NCBI GenBank assembly: GCA_964450735.1 | Contig: CAYVDC010000002.1 | Span: forward strand, 703 to 64,702 | DNA: 64,000 nt | Origin: an uncultured Candidatus Saccharibacteria bacterium | GTDB taxonomy: Bacteria > Patescibacteriota > Minisyncoccia > Phycocordibacterales > UBA9973 | Direction: 5' to 3' | Shown here: positions 15,372 through 51,249 of the stretch, piece by piece | Layout of the letters: each line of letters starts with the position of its first letter | How positions within the stretch are numbered: position 1 is the first letter of the stretch | Made by a program: the position numbers and the translations under genes | The notes under the pieces: generated by a model | Seen by the model: the letters and a program-made list of their open reading frames with translations, nothing else | What the model was told of the DNA's origin: nothing | The model's database searches: none

Positions 15372-15839
15372 ATGGAAAAAGAGCTCAGCTGGTCAGCATT
15401 TGAATACAAACAAAAAGTCCATACCGTAGACTGGTATTGGACCGTCGGCCTTATTACCGTCGTAGTTGTCGTGGCTTGTATTTTCTTCAAAAATTATCTC
15501 TTCGCCTTTTTGCTACTTATGGGCATCGGTACCCTCACCTACCTTTCGTTCAGAGCGCCAGAAGAAGTCAGCATTGTCATCGATGATAAAGGCATTCGCG
15601 TGCGCAACAACCTGTTTACGTACCGAAACCTCAAAGGATTCTGGATCGAGGAAGAAGCGCAAGAAAATGGCGATCGACACTTGCTTATACTTACTTCTCG
15701 CACCTACTCACCGCTTCTAGCTCTTCCGCTCGGAGATGTAGCCCCAGAAACAATCCGACAAGCACTGCTGCCGCATCTCAAAGAGCAGGAAATGCATGAA
15801 AGCGTTTCGCATAAGTTTCTAGAGATCCTTGGGTTTTGA
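15372..15839 (+). CDS. Hypothetical membrane protein
   Basis: 155 aa with an N-terminal double TM helix and a soluble C-terminal domain. Confidence 0.4.
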   Translation: MEKELSWSAFEYKQKVHTVDWYWTVGLITVVVVVACIFFKNYLFAFLLLMGIGTLTYLSFRAPEEVSIVIDDKGIRVRNNLFTYRNLKGFWIEEEAQENGDRHLLILTSRTYSPLLALPLGDVAPETIRQALLPHLKEQEMHESVSHKFLEILGF

Positions 15840-15928
15840 CTTGCCGATAGGCAAGTCCCGCGCGCGGCGTGGTACATAAAAATTCAGTGACAAGGCGCGT
15901 GCAGCCACTAAGTGTAAGGATAACTAAC
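15838..15928 (+). repeat. Copy 1 of a three-copy dispersed structured element
   Basis: The first hairpin is gacttgcc-gata-ggcaagtc. It is followed by ccgcgcgcggcgtggtac, the spacer aaaaattc, the second helix partner ggcgcg, and the invariant tail tgcagccactaagtgtaaggataact. Compare 43649-43738 and 51138-51226. Confidence 0.6.
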
Positions 15929-15949
15929 ATATAAACCAAACAATTCACC

Positions 15950-16084
15950 ATGGAGGAAGAAAAAGAAATCATCTGCCCAAAGTGCAAGATTCCAATGGAA
16001 AATGGCGTTTGTCCTGTCTGCGATATGCGAGCAATCGATATCGAAGACGAGGATGAATACAACGACCGAAGAGAGCGAAGATAG
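15950..16084 (+). CDS. Small zinc-ribbon peptide (44 aa) with an acidic tail
   Basis: ATG..TAG ORF giving MEEEKEIICPKCKIPMENGVCPVCDMRAIDIEDEDEYNDRRERR, with CxxC-x8-CxxC. A terminator follows. Confidence 0.35.
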   Translation: MEEEKEIICPKCKIPMENGVCPVCDMRAIDIEDEDEYNDRRERR

Positions 16085-16088
16085 AAAA

Positions 16089-16116
16089 TAAAAAACCGCA
16101 CTAGTGCGGTTTTTTA
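16089..16116. terminator. Rho-independent terminator
   Basis: aaaaaaccgcac-tagt-gcggtttttt. Confidence 0.65.
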
Positions 16117-43527: not shown

Positions 43528-43648
43528 GAGATTATTTTTTCTTACTTACTAATGATAAATAAATATTGGAGTATATATTTGTACCGCGTACGAGACACGT
43601 ACTTAGGTACTAGCACTATACCAGAAAAGCTATATATTGCAAGGCTGG

Positions 43649-43738
43649 GGACTGGCTGGTAAGCCAGTCACCGCGACCCGCGTGATACATTAAATTTCCA
43701 AGACCAGGGTCGTGCAGCCACAAAGTGTAGGAACAACT
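43649..43738 (+). repeat. Copy 2 of the dispersed structured element
   Basis: The first hairpin is gactggct-ggta-agccagtc. It is followed by ccgcgacccgcgtgatac, the spacer aaatttcc, the second helix partner gggtc, and the tail cgtgcagccacaaagtgtaggaacaactg. Confidence 0.6.
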
Positions 43739-43753
43739 GGAATAAATACTTCT

Positions 43754-44030
43754 GGGAGAGCGCACCAGCAGTAGTTTCCTGACTTGCTCACGCTGCGTCA
43801 GGAGAACTACTGCTTCGCGCCCTGTGCATCTCATCACCGTACTCATTGGCAATCACCACCCTTTACCGTAAGGGTGGTGATTGAAATACTAATGGCTTAT
43901 AGATGTTCAGGGCGCGAAGTCTCATGCTGCCGAAAGGGCGTTACGGAGCGCGACGGCGCGAGTACCAGCCGAAAATCCCTCAGGATTTTACGGCGTGTCC
44001 TTTCGGCAGCATGAGGCGTAGCGCTCTCCC
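43754..44030. ncRNA. Candidate structured RNA (~277 nt) of unknown class between rpsT and ruvA
   Basis: Terminal helix gggagagcgc/gcgctctccc. Inside it lie hairpin gcagtagtt..aactactgc, a 12-bp helix cttcgcgccctg/cagggcgcgaag enclosing hairpin atcaccaccctt-taccg-taagggtggtgat, and a 17-bp helix ctcatgctgccgaaagg/cctttcggcagcatgag enclosing two small hairpins. Confidence 0.45.
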
Positions 44031-44073
44031 AAAACCCTAATCCAGTTACCCTTTGCCATGATATACTATTCCC

Positions 44074-44643
44074 ATGATCGGCTATATTGAAGGCACTATC
44101 CGCCTCGTGACAGACAAATACGTACTCGTGAGCACTGGCGGCATTGGCTATAAAGTTTTTGGGACCCAGGAACTTTTGGCTAAGCTAAATGGCCAGACGA
44201 ACTGTTCCCTTTTTACGCACCTTGCTGTTCGAGAAGACGCCCTCGATCTCTACGGATTTGAAAACGAATCCGAACTTTCTCTTTTTGAACTTCTCATCAC
44301 TGTTTCCGGCATCGGCCCGCGCGGTGCTTTGAATGTGCTTTCGATCGCAAGCATCGAAACATTGGAACAAGCGATTGCTACCGGAGACACCGGCTACCTG
44401 ACAAAAGTCTCCGGCATCGGACGCAAAACCGCAGAAAAAATTGTTCTTGAACTCCGCGACAAGATGCAGGCTCGAACAAATGGCGAAACCAAGAAAGATC
44501 TTCGCGGCGAATCCGATGCAGTACTTGCTCTCCAGTCACTTGGTTACTCACAAAGCGAATCTCGCGAAGCGCTCAAGCAAATTGATCCAAACCTTACGAC
44601 AAACCAAAAGATCAAAGAGGCGCTCAAATTTTTAGGAAAATAG
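44074..44643 (+). CDS. ruvA: Holliday junction branch-migration protein RuvA
   Basis: The start MIGYIEGTI is the RuvA N-terminus. An HhH pair (GIGPRGALNVL ... VSGIGRKTAEKI) and a C-terminal domain III are present. Confidence 0.9.
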   Translation: MIGYIEGTIRLVTDKYVLVSTGGIGYKVFGTQELLAKLNGQTNCSLFTHLAVREDALDLYGFENESELSLFELLITVSGIGPRGALNVLSIASIETLEQAIATGDTGYLTKVSGIGRKTAEKIVLELRDKMQARTNGETKKDLRGESDAVLALQSLGYSQSESREALKQIDPNLTTNQKIKEALKFLGK

Positions 44644-50865: not shown

Positions 50866-51083
50866 GTTATCCACAACGCCGGCTCGCAAAGCGAGCCGGC
50901 GTTCGTGTATACTAGATGTAAGTTTGACATACGGAGCGCTAGTGAATGTAACCCTCTTCGGGATTCAACTTTGCACCAAGTCCTCTGTACCAGAAGCACT
51001 ATCATTATTTGTAGCTTCGCGTCGTTGTTCTTTCAACAATAAAATCTTCTCAGTTAATTCTGTTCTTTGTATCAAAAAGGCTA

Positions 51084-51138
51084 AAGAGCCTCGAGCATGC
51101 AACCATACGTTGGTTTCATACTCGAGGCTCTTTTTTTA
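51084..51138 (+). terminator. Compound terminator
   Basis: aagagcctcgag ... ctcgaggctctttttttatt, with an inner hairpin aacca-tacg-ttggtt. A GC hairpin aacgccggctcgc-aaa-gcgagccggcgtt sits upstream at 50875-50903. Confidence 0.65.
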
Positions 51139-51226
51139 TTTCGCGAAAGCGAAATACCGCGCCCAGCGTGGTACTACTAAAATTCCCACACCAGGGGCGT
51201 GCAGCCACAAAGTGTAGGAACAACTG
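51138..51226 (+). repeat. Copy 3 of the dispersed structured element
   Basis: The first hairpin is atttcgc-gaaa-gcgaaat. It is followed by ccgcgcccagcgtggtac, the spacer aaaattcc, the second helix partner gggcg, and the tail cgtgcagccacaaagtgtaggaacaactg. Confidence 0.6.
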
Positions 51227-51249
51227 AAATCATGTTTCAGAACTTGTAT

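What the first reader, a model, noticed from the sequence alone, without database searches (positions are those of the whole stretch)
15838..15928. Three-copy dispersed ~90-nt structured element with covarying stems and an invariant 27-nt tail
Copies lie at 15838-15928, 43649-43738 and 51138-51226. All are intergenic and all share the same orientation. Each begins with a hairpin capped by a GNRA-like loop, and the stem sequence differs between copies while staying complementary (gacttgcc/ggcaagtc, gactggct/agccagtc, atttcgc/gcgaaat). Next come CCGCG-N5-CGTGRTAC and an AAAWTTCC spacer. A second helix follows, and its two strands also change in a compensatory way (cgcgc/gcgcg, gaccc/gggtc, cgccc/gggcg). 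That helix abuts the near-invariant tail CGTGCAGCCACWAAGTGTARGAWAACT. Compensatory changes in two helices, together with a conserved unpaired tail, point to selection on RNA or DNA structure rather than on coding. I could not match the element to any RNA family I know. It may be a new sRNA or cis-regulatory family, or a REP/MITE-like repeat. No transposase, integrase or RAYT gene is nearby.
Basis: seen in the sequence. Interest (0 to 1): 0.7.

Follow-up and report, generated by a model that had tools for sequence, protein, structure and literature searches.

The report
Structured mobile intergenic repeat in Saccharibacteria
A roughly 105-base repeat found three times here, and about twenty more times in a few related Saccharibacteria (CPR) genomes, keeps two base-paired stems and a fixed unpaired tail while appearing at or missing from sites between genes in different strains; it is an undescribed family of small structured repeat whose mover and purpose are unknown.

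Summary
Three + strand copies (15838-15941, 43649-43754, 51137-51241) score 98-109 bits with a covariance model, and the next-best window hit scores 12.6 bits. Eighteen more copies occur, all in a narrow Saccharibacteria-like CPR clade. Rfam, phage, plasmid and viral collections hold nothing similar.

Each copy has an 8-9 bp hairpin (P1) with a GNNA loop, stacked on a long-range helix (P2: CGCG+NNN / N'N'N'+CGTG). P2 encloses a conserved ~30-nt loop and is followed by an invariant tail. All 9 P1 pairs and 2 P2 pairs covary.

Context argues against a 5'-UTR regulator: copies lie in tandem, convergent, divergent and antisense settings. About half abut the T-run of an upstream terminator.

Orthologous loci show presence/absence. 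Copy 1 is a clean 104-nt insertion between two coupled cistrons. Copy 2 plus a 309-nt inverted-repeat-ended module form a 413-nt unit that is missing from strains with ~95% identical flanks.

Variable stem pairs are 98% strict Watson-Crick, with almost no wobble. Other resident copies have persisted at orthologous sites and diverged with compensatory changes.

Best reading (0.45): a non-autonomous, structure-defined mobile repeat of the ERIC/REP/BOX kind. A host-used structured RNA remains a serious rival.

The parts
15838..15941 (+). Copy 1 of the element, called E here (104 nt). It is inserted between a 155-aa membrane-protein gene and a conserved 44-aa zinc-ribbon ORF. The element's first bases GA complete the upstream stop codon TGA.
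   Evidence: CM hit 15837-15941, 97.6 bits. Empty orthologous site in L044 reads GGGTTTT^AATCTCTATGG, against window GGGTTTT|GACTTGCC...CCAAAC|AATTCACCATGG.
15838..15857 (+). Copy 1, P1 hairpin: gacttgcc-gata-ggcaagtc.
15859..15901 (+). Copy 1, P2 domain: 5' strand cgcgcgc (15859-15865), conserved loop (GCGTGGTAC...AAAATTC...ACAAGG), 3' strand gcgcgtg (15895-15901).
15902..15941 (+). Copy 1, unpaired tail CAGCCACTAAGTGTAAGGATAAC..., up to the right boundary.
43649..43754 (+). Copy 2 of E. P1 is 43650-43669; P2 strands are 43672-43679 and 43707-43714; the tail starts at 43715.
   Evidence: CM hit, 108.7 bits
43737..44045 (+). Module X: a 309-nt, very stably folded segment with three long hairpins in a closing stem, bounded by ~22-28-nt terminal inverted repeats (CTGGAWTA-N5-YYBGGAGAG). 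Its left repeat overlaps the 3' end of copy 2's tail.
   Evidence: Both ends match the same pattern on opposite strands. Fold is -171.8 kcal/mol, z = -15. Homologs occur in L024, L034, L038, L040 and L053.
43646..44058 (+). Composite E+X unit (413 nt), absent from strains L049/L050/L051, whose flanks are ~95% identical and whose RuvA is 98% identical.
   Evidence: Empty site reads TTGCAAGGC-G-TGATATACT, against window TTGCAAGGC|TGGGGACTGG...TTTGCCA|TGATATACT.
51137..51241 (+). Copy 3 of E. It directly follows the T-run of an intrinsic terminator and ends about 10 nt before the stop codon of the convergent holA-like gene. P1 is 51137-51156; P2 strands are 51158-51164 and 51195-51201.
   Evidence: CM hit, 106 bits. 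Orthologous site is filled in L032 and L040, empty in L035, and holds a remnant in L038.
51224..51240 (+). Copy 3 'mini-X' hairpin ctgaaat-cat-gtttcag: only the outer tips of X's two terminal repeats. The same variant is carried by L005(+) and L023; L009 carries a truncated version (AACTGAAATCATGTAAACC) that does not form the hairpin.
51077..51136 (+). Upstream intrinsic terminator whose T-run abuts copy 3. It is not part of the element, because it is also present at the empty site in L035.

Best explanation
The element (E) is a lineage-restricted, non-autonomous mobile repeat defined by the fold of a single strand rather than by terminal inverted repeats. Two helices need only pair: P1, and P2 with its invariant G.T. 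They present about 45 invariant or near-invariant unpaired bases in the P2 loop and the 3' tail. I infer that these bases are the recognition surface for a factor encoded elsewhere in the genome, which moves or copies the module. E lands at the ends of transcription units, most often right after an oligo-T run (a terminator tail, or TTTT^A at a stop codon). It can carry or lose a second module, X, which has its own terminal inverted repeats. Once resident, a copy is co-transcribed with its neighbours as 3'-UTR or intercistronic RNA, and it is either kept intact or removed cleanly. What is shown: the fold, the covariation, the family's range, the insertion/absence polymorphisms, the target bias and the modularity. 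What is inferred: the existence and nature of the mobilising factor, and whether the moving intermediate is DNA or RNA.
For: Multi-copy and clade-restricted: there are 21 copies in the window plus about 7 related assemblies, all CPR/Saccharibacteria-like. None occur in viral, phage or plasmid collections.

Discrete module with clean ends: copy 1 is a 104-nt insertion between two cistrons that are 5 nt apart in L044, and it is also absent from L045 and L047. E+X (413 nt) is absent from three strains with ~95% identical flanks, and no target duplication longer than 2 nt is seen. The DsbB-holA site is filled in three genomes, empty in L035 and holds a remnant in L038.

Target bias: 11 of 21 copies have TTTT within 14 nt ending at P1, and two empty sites read TTTT^A.

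Orientation is not tied to the neighbours. Copies occur in sense, antisense (L001, L002, L005-), convergent and divergent settings, and two inverted copies lie 2.2 kb apart in L005.

There is no consistent sigma-70-type (-35/-10) promoter or terminator of its own.

Variable stem pairs comprise 222 Watson-Crick, 1 G.T, 1 A.C and 3 other. This is what DNA-level pairing, or maintenance of both strands, would give. One copy (L021) has the hairpin tip inverted (loop TACC instead of GGTA), which is a DNA-level event.

X is a MITE-like module with terminal inverted repeats, multi-copy and independently present or absent at the same sites.
Against: No mobilising enzyme was found. None of 20 window ORFs tested is a transposase, recombinase or reverse transcriptase.

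No copies are near-identical: nearest neighbours are 73-88% identical and mostly lie in other genomes. So there is no sign of a recent burst.

No degenerate fossils exist: nothing scores between 13 and 80 bits in the window plus 155 kb of related loci.

Copies at orthologous loci (L018/L020, L021/L005+, c3/L032/L040) have diverged about as much as their flanks (74-77% versus 76-78%) while keeping every stem paired and the core 84-92% identical. This looks like purifying selection on each resident copy, which a purely selfish element does not predict.

E itself has no terminal inverted repeats and no target-site duplication. The c2 site is not T-rich. The S20-ruvA polymorphism is more parsimoniously a loss than a gain, because L053 and L054 carry related inserts at the same site.
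Confidence: 0.45

Rival explanations
1. E is a host-used structured RNA module that is only occasionally duplicated or lost. One form of this idea is a cis-acting element in 3' UTRs and intercistronic regions, serving as a protein-binding, processing or stability signal, or as a device for handling terminator read-through. The other form is a family of sibling small RNAs whose invariant single-stranded tail is the working surface.
For: Two helices covary strongly while the loops and tail stay invariant. An invariant G-U in P2 marks the + strand. Loops are GNNA tetraloops. 16 of 21 copies are co-oriented with the upstream gene and start 0-6 nt after its stop codon or terminator. Copies have persisted at orthologous loci, with compensatory changes and a core 84-92% identical where flanks are 76-78% identical. 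There are no degenerate copies. + strand folds have z = -2.0 to -3.4.
Against: Three copies lie antisense between tandem genes. About half sit after an efficient-looking terminator, so they would be transcribed only by read-through. No conserved promoter lies upstream of P1, and no terminator lies after the tail. G-U is almost absent from the variable pairs (1 of 227 cells). One locus shows a clean insertion into a tightly coupled operon junction, where a new regulatory RNA is not obviously useful. No common gene function appears among the neighbours: FtsW/FolD, DsbB/holA, S20/RuvA, UppP/SecD, a tRNA.
Confidence: 0.3
2. E is specifically an IS200/IS605-type derivative (a PATE). P1 and the mini-X hairpin would be the left and right subterminal hairpins recognised by a Y1 HUH transposase on single-stranded DNA. 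The P2 domain plus tail would be a guide-RNA (omega RNA)-like scaffold.
For: E has no terminal inverted repeats and no target duplication. Absence is seamless at three loci. Hairpins lie near both ends in the c3-type copies. Insertion is 3' of a short T-rich motif at two sites. Pairing is structure-specific and strictly Watson-Crick, with one invariant mismatch that distinguishes the strands.
Against: The 5' flanking 'target' is not constant: TTTT, TTTT, AAGGC and others. The P1 stem sequence is free to vary. There is no strand bias, since two inverted copies lie 2.2 kb apart in L005. No TnpA or TnpB was found in the DNA held. No Rfam IS605- or HEARO-type match was found. Sequence downstream of the tail is part of the inserted segment, so it is not a flank-derived guide.
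Confidence: 0.08
3. E is a Sib/Ibs-like type I toxin-antitoxin repeat. The reverse strand would encode a 16-22-aa hydrophobic peptide (for example MISVVPTLCGCTPLVWEF), and the + strand RNA would be its antisense antitoxin.
For: A reverse-strand frame reads ..(V/I)(V/I)PTL(C/S)GCTxLV(W/A)EF*. An ATG or GTG start and a stop in the linker are both intact in about 10 of 21 copies. The otherwise puzzling conservation of ...AGCAC or ...ATCATG at the far 3' end corresponds to those start codons. Codon second positions A86 and A89 are invariant, giving only V, I, F or L. The family is multi-copy, intergenic, clade-restricted and patchy, as type I loci are.
Against: Six consecutive codons show no synonymous change in 20 copies. 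Codon-position entropies are not coding-like (1.14, 0.69, 1.03). About half the copies lack a start or the stop, or are frame-shifted (L018, L009, c1, L015). No Shine-Dalgarno sequence precedes the starts. A 19-codon open frame is expected by chance about 40% of the time. Coding does not explain the P1/P2 covariation.
Confidence: 0.07
4. E is a portable promoter and leader. The conserved GCGTGGTAC(A/T)T in the P2 loop would be an extended -10 promoter (TGnTAnnnT) like the native ones at ruvA, folD and the DsbB-proximal sRNA. It would drive a transcript that begins in the loop and carries the invariant tail (with AGGA) as its 5' leader.
For: 12 of 21 copies match TGnTAnnnT. Native promoters in these genomes have the same form: GTGATATACT at ruvA, GTGGTATACT in L053, CTGATATAAT at folD, GTGTATACT at the sRNA. 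In L014 an ORF starts 7 nt after the tail's AGGA. In L015 a tRNA gene starts 20 nt after the tail. X, genes or a small ORF follow in about 10 copies.
Against: 8 copies point into the 3' end of a convergent gene within 10-160 nt. 9 of 21 lack the -7 T or the TG. folD has its own promoter downstream of E. A transcript starting in the loop could not form P2, so the P2 and P1 covariation would be unexplained.
Confidence: 0.06

Closest known systems
ERIC / IRU (enterobacterial repetitive intergenic consensus) elements
   Same: Both are ~100-130-nt intergenic repeats in tens of copies. Both occur in either orientation within transcribed intergenic regions and show strain-level presence/absence, variants with internal insertions or deletions, strong sequence conservation without a known transposase, and folds maintained by compensatory change (my knowledge of the ERIC literature, not tested here).
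   Different: ERIC is one long imperfect palindrome, whereas E is an asymmetric fold: a hairpin, a long-range helix and an unpaired invariant tail. The hosts are CPR rather than enterics. E associates with oligo-T sites and with a second module.
REP / REPIN elements mobilised by RAYT (Y1 HUH) transposases
   Same: Both are short, structured, non-autonomous repeats found at gene ends and after stop codons. Stems are kept by compensatory change, and recognition is thought to act on a folded single strand plus a short conserved unpaired motif.
   Different: REPs are 20-40-nt simple palindromes with a 5' GTAG or CGTC tag, usually in inverted pairs and in hundreds of copies. E is ~105 nt and non-palindromic. 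GTAG occurs in the tail of only about 11 of 21 copies and not at a hairpin foot. No RAYT was found.
BOX elements of Streptococcus pneumoniae
   Same: Both have a modular build: conserved end modules with a variable middle. Both form stable secondary structure, lie intergenically and have no known transposase.
   Different: There is no sequence or fold similarity, and BOX modules are tandem boxA-boxB(n)-boxC. Here a structured head (E) is optionally followed by a module ended by terminal inverted repeats (X).
IS200/IS605-derived PATEs and their omega (reRNA) scaffolds
   Same: Both lack terminal inverted repeats and target duplication, are absent seamlessly, have subterminal hairpins, and show structure-specific recognition on single strands.
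   Different: E has no constant flanking target motif, a variable hairpin sequence, no strand bias, and no TnpA or TnpB detected.
Sib/Ibs (QUAD) type I toxin-antitoxin repeats of E. coli
   Same: Both are ~100-140-nt multi-copy intergenic repeats in which a structured RNA on one strand lies opposite an 18-19-codon hydrophobic ORF.
   Different: The ORF is intact in only about half of the E copies, and its substitution pattern is not coding-like.

Membership tests
Any Rfam 15 family (riboswitches, ribozymes, sRNAs, IS605/HEARO-type RNAs) | Covariance-model match at or near the family's gathering score | tested here: not met
   Gathering mode on the whole window gives only 2 tRNAs. E-value mode (up to 10) on the c2 and c3 regions gives no hit overlapping the element except terminator-type noise.
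Cis-regulatory 5' leader / riboswitch | Consistent position upstream of, and co-oriented with, genes of related function | tested here: not met
   Copies occur in tandem, convergent, divergent and antisense settings, and the neighbouring genes are unrelated.
Stand-alone trans-acting sRNA gene | Own promoter upstream and own terminator downstream at each copy | tested here: not met
   No consistent sigma-70-type (-35/-10) promoter or terminator was found. P1 starts 0-6 nt after an upstream terminator or stop codon in about 15 copies, leaving no room for a promoter.
Stand-alone trans-acting sRNA gene | Discrete transcript detected | not testable with these tools
   No expression data are available.
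MITE (inverted-repeat type) | Terminal inverted repeats | tested here: not met
   For E, the left end is the variable P1 arm and the right end is the conserved tail, with no significant end-to-end inverted repeat. Module X does meet this criterion.
MITE (inverted-repeat type) | Target-site duplication | tested here: not met
   Filled-versus-empty comparisons show none at c1 and at most 2 nt at c2+X.
MITE / any non-autonomous mobile element | Presence/absence at orthologous sites with clean boundaries | tested here: met
   Seen at the c1 locus, the c3 locus and the c2+X locus.
MITE / any non-autonomous mobile element | Cognate transposase or recombinase in the same genome | tested here: inconclusive
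   None among 20 window ORFs. An IS200 probe is negative on 381 kb.
REP / REPIN | 20-40-nt palindrome with a GTAG or CGTC tag at its 5' foot, often in inverted pairs | tested here: not met
   E is ~105 nt and asymmetric, and GTAG in the tail is variable and not at a hairpin foot.
IS200/IS605-type PATE | Constant tetra- or pentanucleotide target immediately 5' of the left end | tested here: not met
   The 5' flanks differ: TTTT in 11 of 21 copies, and AAGGC, ATCA, GCAA and others elsewhere.
IS200/IS605-type PATE | No terminal inverted repeats, no target duplication, subterminal hairpins | tested here: met
Integron attC site | R''/R' core sites (RYYYAAC ... GTTRRRY), arrays of cassettes, nearby intI | tested here: not met
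   No such cores are present. Copies lie 7.5-28 kb apart among housekeeping genes, and no integrase is seen.
Type I toxin-antitoxin (Sib/Ibs-like) | Conserved small hydrophobic ORF with a coding-type substitution pattern | tested here: inconclusive
   The frame is present and intact in about 10 of 21 copies, but there are no synonymous changes in six invariant codons and the entropy pattern is not coding-like.

The most novel reading that the evidence does not exclude
E is the recognition module of a so-far undescribed kind of mobile element in CPR bacteria. It would be specified by a folded single strand (hairpin, long-range helix with an invariant G.T, and about 45 fixed unpaired bases) rather than by terminal repeats. 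It would move seamlessly into oligo-T/terminator sites by way of an RNA or single-stranded DNA intermediate and an unidentified enzyme or ribozyme-like activity. On this view the invariant core would be a catalytic or guide-like element, not merely a binding site.
Probability: 0.1. Interest if true: 0.8.

Novelty: new variant of a known kind. Interest (0 to 1): 0.5.

Why it matters
CPR/Saccharibacteria genomes are tiny and streamlined, and few mobile elements or regulatory RNAs are known in them. These genomes tolerate a ~105-nt repeat in at least 6-7 copies per genome. The repeat keeps about 45 positions fixed and two helices paired across genomes whose flanking DNA has diverged by about 23%, yet it is gained and lost between strains. 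This points to either an unrecognised mobilisation system or an unrecognised RNA function in this phylum. The covariance model gives a handle for finding the element and, by phylogenetic profiling, its partner gene. The repeat and its companion module X also explain contig breaks and local rearrangements in these metagenome-assembled genomes.

Tried and rejected
Pseudoknots were not supported. GUGGU (loop) with GCCAC (tail) and UUCC (loop) with GGAA (tail) show no covariation, and natural variants break them. An inner extension UGGU/ACCA behaves the same way (reading).

The local hairpin CCGCG/CGUGG, as an alternative to P2, consists only of invariant bases and is broken in c2, L002 and L021, so it cannot be supported.

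The sigma-70-type (-35/-10) promoter and terminator scans found nothing consistent.

Known RNA families gave nothing.

tRNA linkage was checked: only L015 has an adjacent tRNA.

Viral, phage and plasmid origin found no match. A looser viral pattern returned 29 loci that are unrelated coding sequence and score nothing with the model.

An IS200 TnpA probe was negative.

I looked for a link between the P2 variable bases and flanking target sequence, as in IS608 guide logic. None was seen by eye.

End-to-end inverted repeats in E show only a weak consensus-level resemblance (T.AYT..C.G) and were judged not significant.

+ strand coding was rejected: the frames are closed or not conserved.

My first impression that stems evolve faster than flanks was corrected. 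Over 250 nt the flanks are 76-78% identical and the elements 74-77%.

Two literature searches for a described Saccharibacteria/Patescibacteria repeat or RNA motif, plus one for related transposon families, found nothing relevant.
Full report
**1. Checking the observation**

The three stretches are as described and all lie on the + strand. They align over about 105 nt with 76% mean column identity. The tail pattern occurs three times, against none in 100 shuffles. Rfam finds only two tRNAs in the window at gathering score. It finds nothing for the element in permissive E-value mode.

**2. Range of the family**

An exact scan of one genome per species for the 18-nt tail returned 22 loci. Twelve carry the whole element. 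All twelve are from candidate-phyla-radiation assemblies:
- Saccharibacteria CAZHJZ01, 5 loci
- Saccharibacteria CAYNHU01, 1 locus
- DALYCO01, 6 loci

DALYCO01 is labelled Paceibacterota, but its loci are orthologous to the Saccharibacteria ones. The other ten hits match only the tail and are chance.

A metagenome scan added three new copies. Following flanking proteins into other assemblies added two more, with tail variants GTGCTGCCAC and the canonical form. A covariance model then found one further copy with GTGTAGCCAC.

Viral, phage and plasmid collections hold nothing related. The window itself is an ordinary small-genome chromosome encoding S20, RuvA, DsbB, PolA, holA-like, glutamine synthetase and Fpg.

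**3. Anatomy**

I registered 20 copies by hand into alignment A3.

- **P1** is an 8-9 bp hairpin with loop GAUA, GGUA, GAAA or GCUA. It abuts CCGCG directly.
- **P2** pairs CGCG+NNN with N'N'N'+CGUG across a ~30-nt loop. The loop contains GCGUGGUAC, UAAAAUUC-like and ACCAGG motifs.
- **The tail** follows P2: CAGCCAC-W-AAGUGUAGGAAYAAC...

The pair counts are as follows:
- All 9 P1 pairs change on both sides, and 98% of cells are paired.
- P2 has four invariant pairs, including an invariant G.U.
- P2 also has two strongly covarying pairs, with 7 and 9 double changes.
- Overall pairing is 91.7%, against 30-45% for slid partners.
- No shuffle out of 500 reaches the observed covariation.

Two candidate pseudoknots are not supported.

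The model (R1) finds exactly three copies in the window at 98-109 bits, with the next hit at 12.6 bits. In 155 kb of related loci it finds 19 hits above 80 bits and nothing between 11 and 80 bits. So there are no decayed copies.

**4. Context**

Copies occur in these settings:
- in sense orientation directly after a stop codon: c1, L014, L015, L017, L021, L023, L005+
- directly after the T-run of an intrinsic terminator: c3, L004, L009, L018, L020, L022, L024-, L032, L040
- antisense between tandem genes: L001, L002, L005-
- between divergent genes: c2, and probably L024+, which lies at a contig end

Downstream features vary:
- a co-oriented gene
- a tRNA (L015)
- a small ORF (c1)
- module X (c2, L024-, L040)
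- the 3' end of a convergent gene only 10-25 nt away (c3, L001, L002, L005-)

No sigma-70-type (-35/-10) promoter or terminator is consistently associated. This rules out a 5'-leader regulator. It also makes a self-contained sRNA gene unlikely for the many copies that begin 0-6 nt after a terminator.

**5. Presence and absence at orthologous sites**

*(a) The c1 locus.* In L044 the 155-aa gene ends TAA and the conserved 44-aa zinc-ribbon ORF starts 5 nt later (GGGTTTTAATCTCTATGG). In the window, 104 nt (15838-15941) lie between GGGTTTT and AATTCACCATGG. The element's GA creates a new TGA stop. L045 and L047 also lack the element.

*(b) The c3 locus (DsbB, a conserved noncoding RNA, a terminator, then E, then convergent holA).*
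- L032 and L040 have E.
- L035 has the same terminator followed directly by the holA end.
- L038 has only ATTTGGTGGTTAACTGGAATAG before an X module.

*(c) The c2 locus (S20 and ruvA, divergent).* Three strains with 98%-identical RuvA and ~95%-identical flanks have a 131-nt spacer reading ...TTGCAAGGC-G-TGATATACT. The window has 413 extra bases (43646-44058) at exactly that point, consisting of E plus X. More distant relatives carry X alone (L053) or a divergent relative of E plus other sequence (L054) at the same point. Loss in the three strains is therefore the more parsimonious reading here.

No target duplication longer than 2 nt is seen. Two empty sites read TTTT^A, and 11 of 21 copies follow TTTT.

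**6. Module X**

X (43737-44045) folds with z = -15 into three long hairpins inside a closing stem. Its two ends are ~22-28-nt inverted repeats matching one pattern. It is multi-copy in CAZHUT01 (L040 and L053) and variable in length.

The 3' part of E's tail in c2 is X's left repeat. Copies c3, L005+ and L023 carry only the outer tips of the two repeats as a 17-nt hairpin. L009 carries a truncated version of this variant (AACTGAAATCATGTAAACC) that does not form the hairpin. The repeat is thus modular: a structured head, optionally followed by a MITE-like body.

**7. DNA or RNA, selfish or used**

Evidence pointing to DNA-level maintenance and mobility:
- Of 227 variable stem cells, 222 are Watson-Crick. 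Only one is G.T and one is A.C. From my knowledge of structured RNA families, wobble usually makes up several percent of pairs.
- L021 has an inverted hairpin tip.
- The insertion/absence data in section 5 point the same way.

Evidence pointing to a constraint on each resident copy:
- No two copies are near-identical (73-88% to the nearest neighbour).
- There are no fossils.
- Orthologous copies have diverged in step with their flanks (74-77% versus 76-78%). They have kept all stems paired and the core 84-92% identical.
- The invariant G.U and the co-orientation with upstream genes fit an RNA that is at least co-transcribed.

I therefore rank a structure-defined non-autonomous mobile repeat first (0.45). 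A host-used structured RNA comes second (0.30). The two are not mutually exclusive, as with ERIC and REP elements.

**8. Minor rivals**

*Promoter and leader.* The loop motif GCGTGGTAC(A/T)T resembles the extended -10 promoters native to these genomes, and 12 of 21 copies match TGnTAnnnT. A transcript starting there could not form P2, however, and 8 copies point into convergent genes.

*Small peptide.* The reverse strand carries a short frame (for example MISVVPTLCGCTPLVWEF). Start and stop are both intact in about 10 of 21 copies, which would explain the conserved ...AGCAC and ...ATCATG. But six invariant codons lack any synonymous change, and codon-position variability is not coding-like.

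*IS200/IS605-type derivative.* This fits the seamless, repeat-less ends. It fails on constant target, strand bias and the presence of a transposase.

**9. Verdict**

The finding is real and well characterised structurally, and it belongs to no family in Rfam. It is best filed as a new variant of the small structured interspersed repeats (the ERIC/REP/BOX kind), found in a phylum where none has been described in the literature I could search. Its mechanism of spread and any host role remain open. The steps listed under decisive next steps would settle them.

Noticed in passing
window 50900-51136 (+): There is a ~230-nt conserved noncoding stretch between the DsbB stop/terminator and the terminator that precedes copy 3. 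It has an extended -10 promoter (GTGTATACT at about 50907) and its own terminator, and it is conserved in L032, L035, L038 and L040. It is probably an sRNA. Rfam matches only its terminator (sau-19-like, 31.7 bits against a gathering score of 80).
   Followed up: partly
window 43737-44045 (+); also L024 2240-2385(-), L038 2160-2420(-), L040 3655-3800(-), L053 1335-1490(+), L034 3640-3763(-): Module X is a multi-copy, variable-length (about 120-310 nt), extremely stable hairpin-rich segment with ~25-nt terminal inverted repeats, so it is MITE-like. It occurs with or without E, has no Rfam match, and its function is unknown.
   Followed up: partly
window 15950-16084 (+): A 44-aa zinc-ribbon ORF (MEEEKEIICPKCKIPMENGVCPVCDMRAIDIEDEDEYNDRRERR) is conserved in L044. 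There it lies 5 nt after the upstream gene, so it is a real small gene that ORF length filters would miss. A bidirectional terminator follows at about 16090-16115.
   Followed up: partly
L034 3640-3763 versus window 43949-44060: In the assembly behind L034, the 3' part of X lies next to the holA 3' end. In the window it lies upstream of ruvA. This means either a rearrangement or an independent X insertion. The contig ends inside X, which suggests these repeats break assemblies (L015 and L024 also end at or near copies).
   Followed up: no
L018 about 1900-1935, L020 about 2625-2660, L032 3700-3735(-): Three copies share a further conserved motif downstream of E, ACCTAWTGCCTGCG-N-AGGTATGAAA, which forms a small hairpin. 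It is possibly another module or small RNA.
   Followed up: no
L021 722-743 versus L005 3635-3656: Orthologous copies (FtsW-[E]-FolD) differ by an inversion of the P1 hairpin tip: GCC-GGTA-GGC versus GGC-TACC-GCC. This is the only copy whose loop is not GNNA.
   Followed up: partly
L054 1230-1345: At the same S20-ruvA insertion point, a relative whose RuvA is 79% identical carries ...GTACCCCGCAGCCATTAGGTAATAAATACTT.... This shares GCAGCCA, TAGG and AATAAATACTT with E's tail but is not detected by model R1. It is possibly a divergent subfamily, which would mean the family is wider than the exact-pattern scans show.
   Followed up: partly
window 44059-44076; L005 3768-3787: ruvA and folD appear to be leaderless or nearly so. 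A TGnTATAMT extended -10 lies 8-12 nt before the ATG, with no -35 and no Shine-Dalgarno sequence. This is useful for annotating promoters in this clade.
   Followed up: no
loci L001, L004, L005, L015, L017, L018 (DALYCO01): This assembly is titled Candidatus Paceibacterota, but its loci are orthologous to Saccharibacteria CAZHJZ01 loci (same gene order, 76-78% nucleotide identity). The label may be wrong.
   Followed up: no
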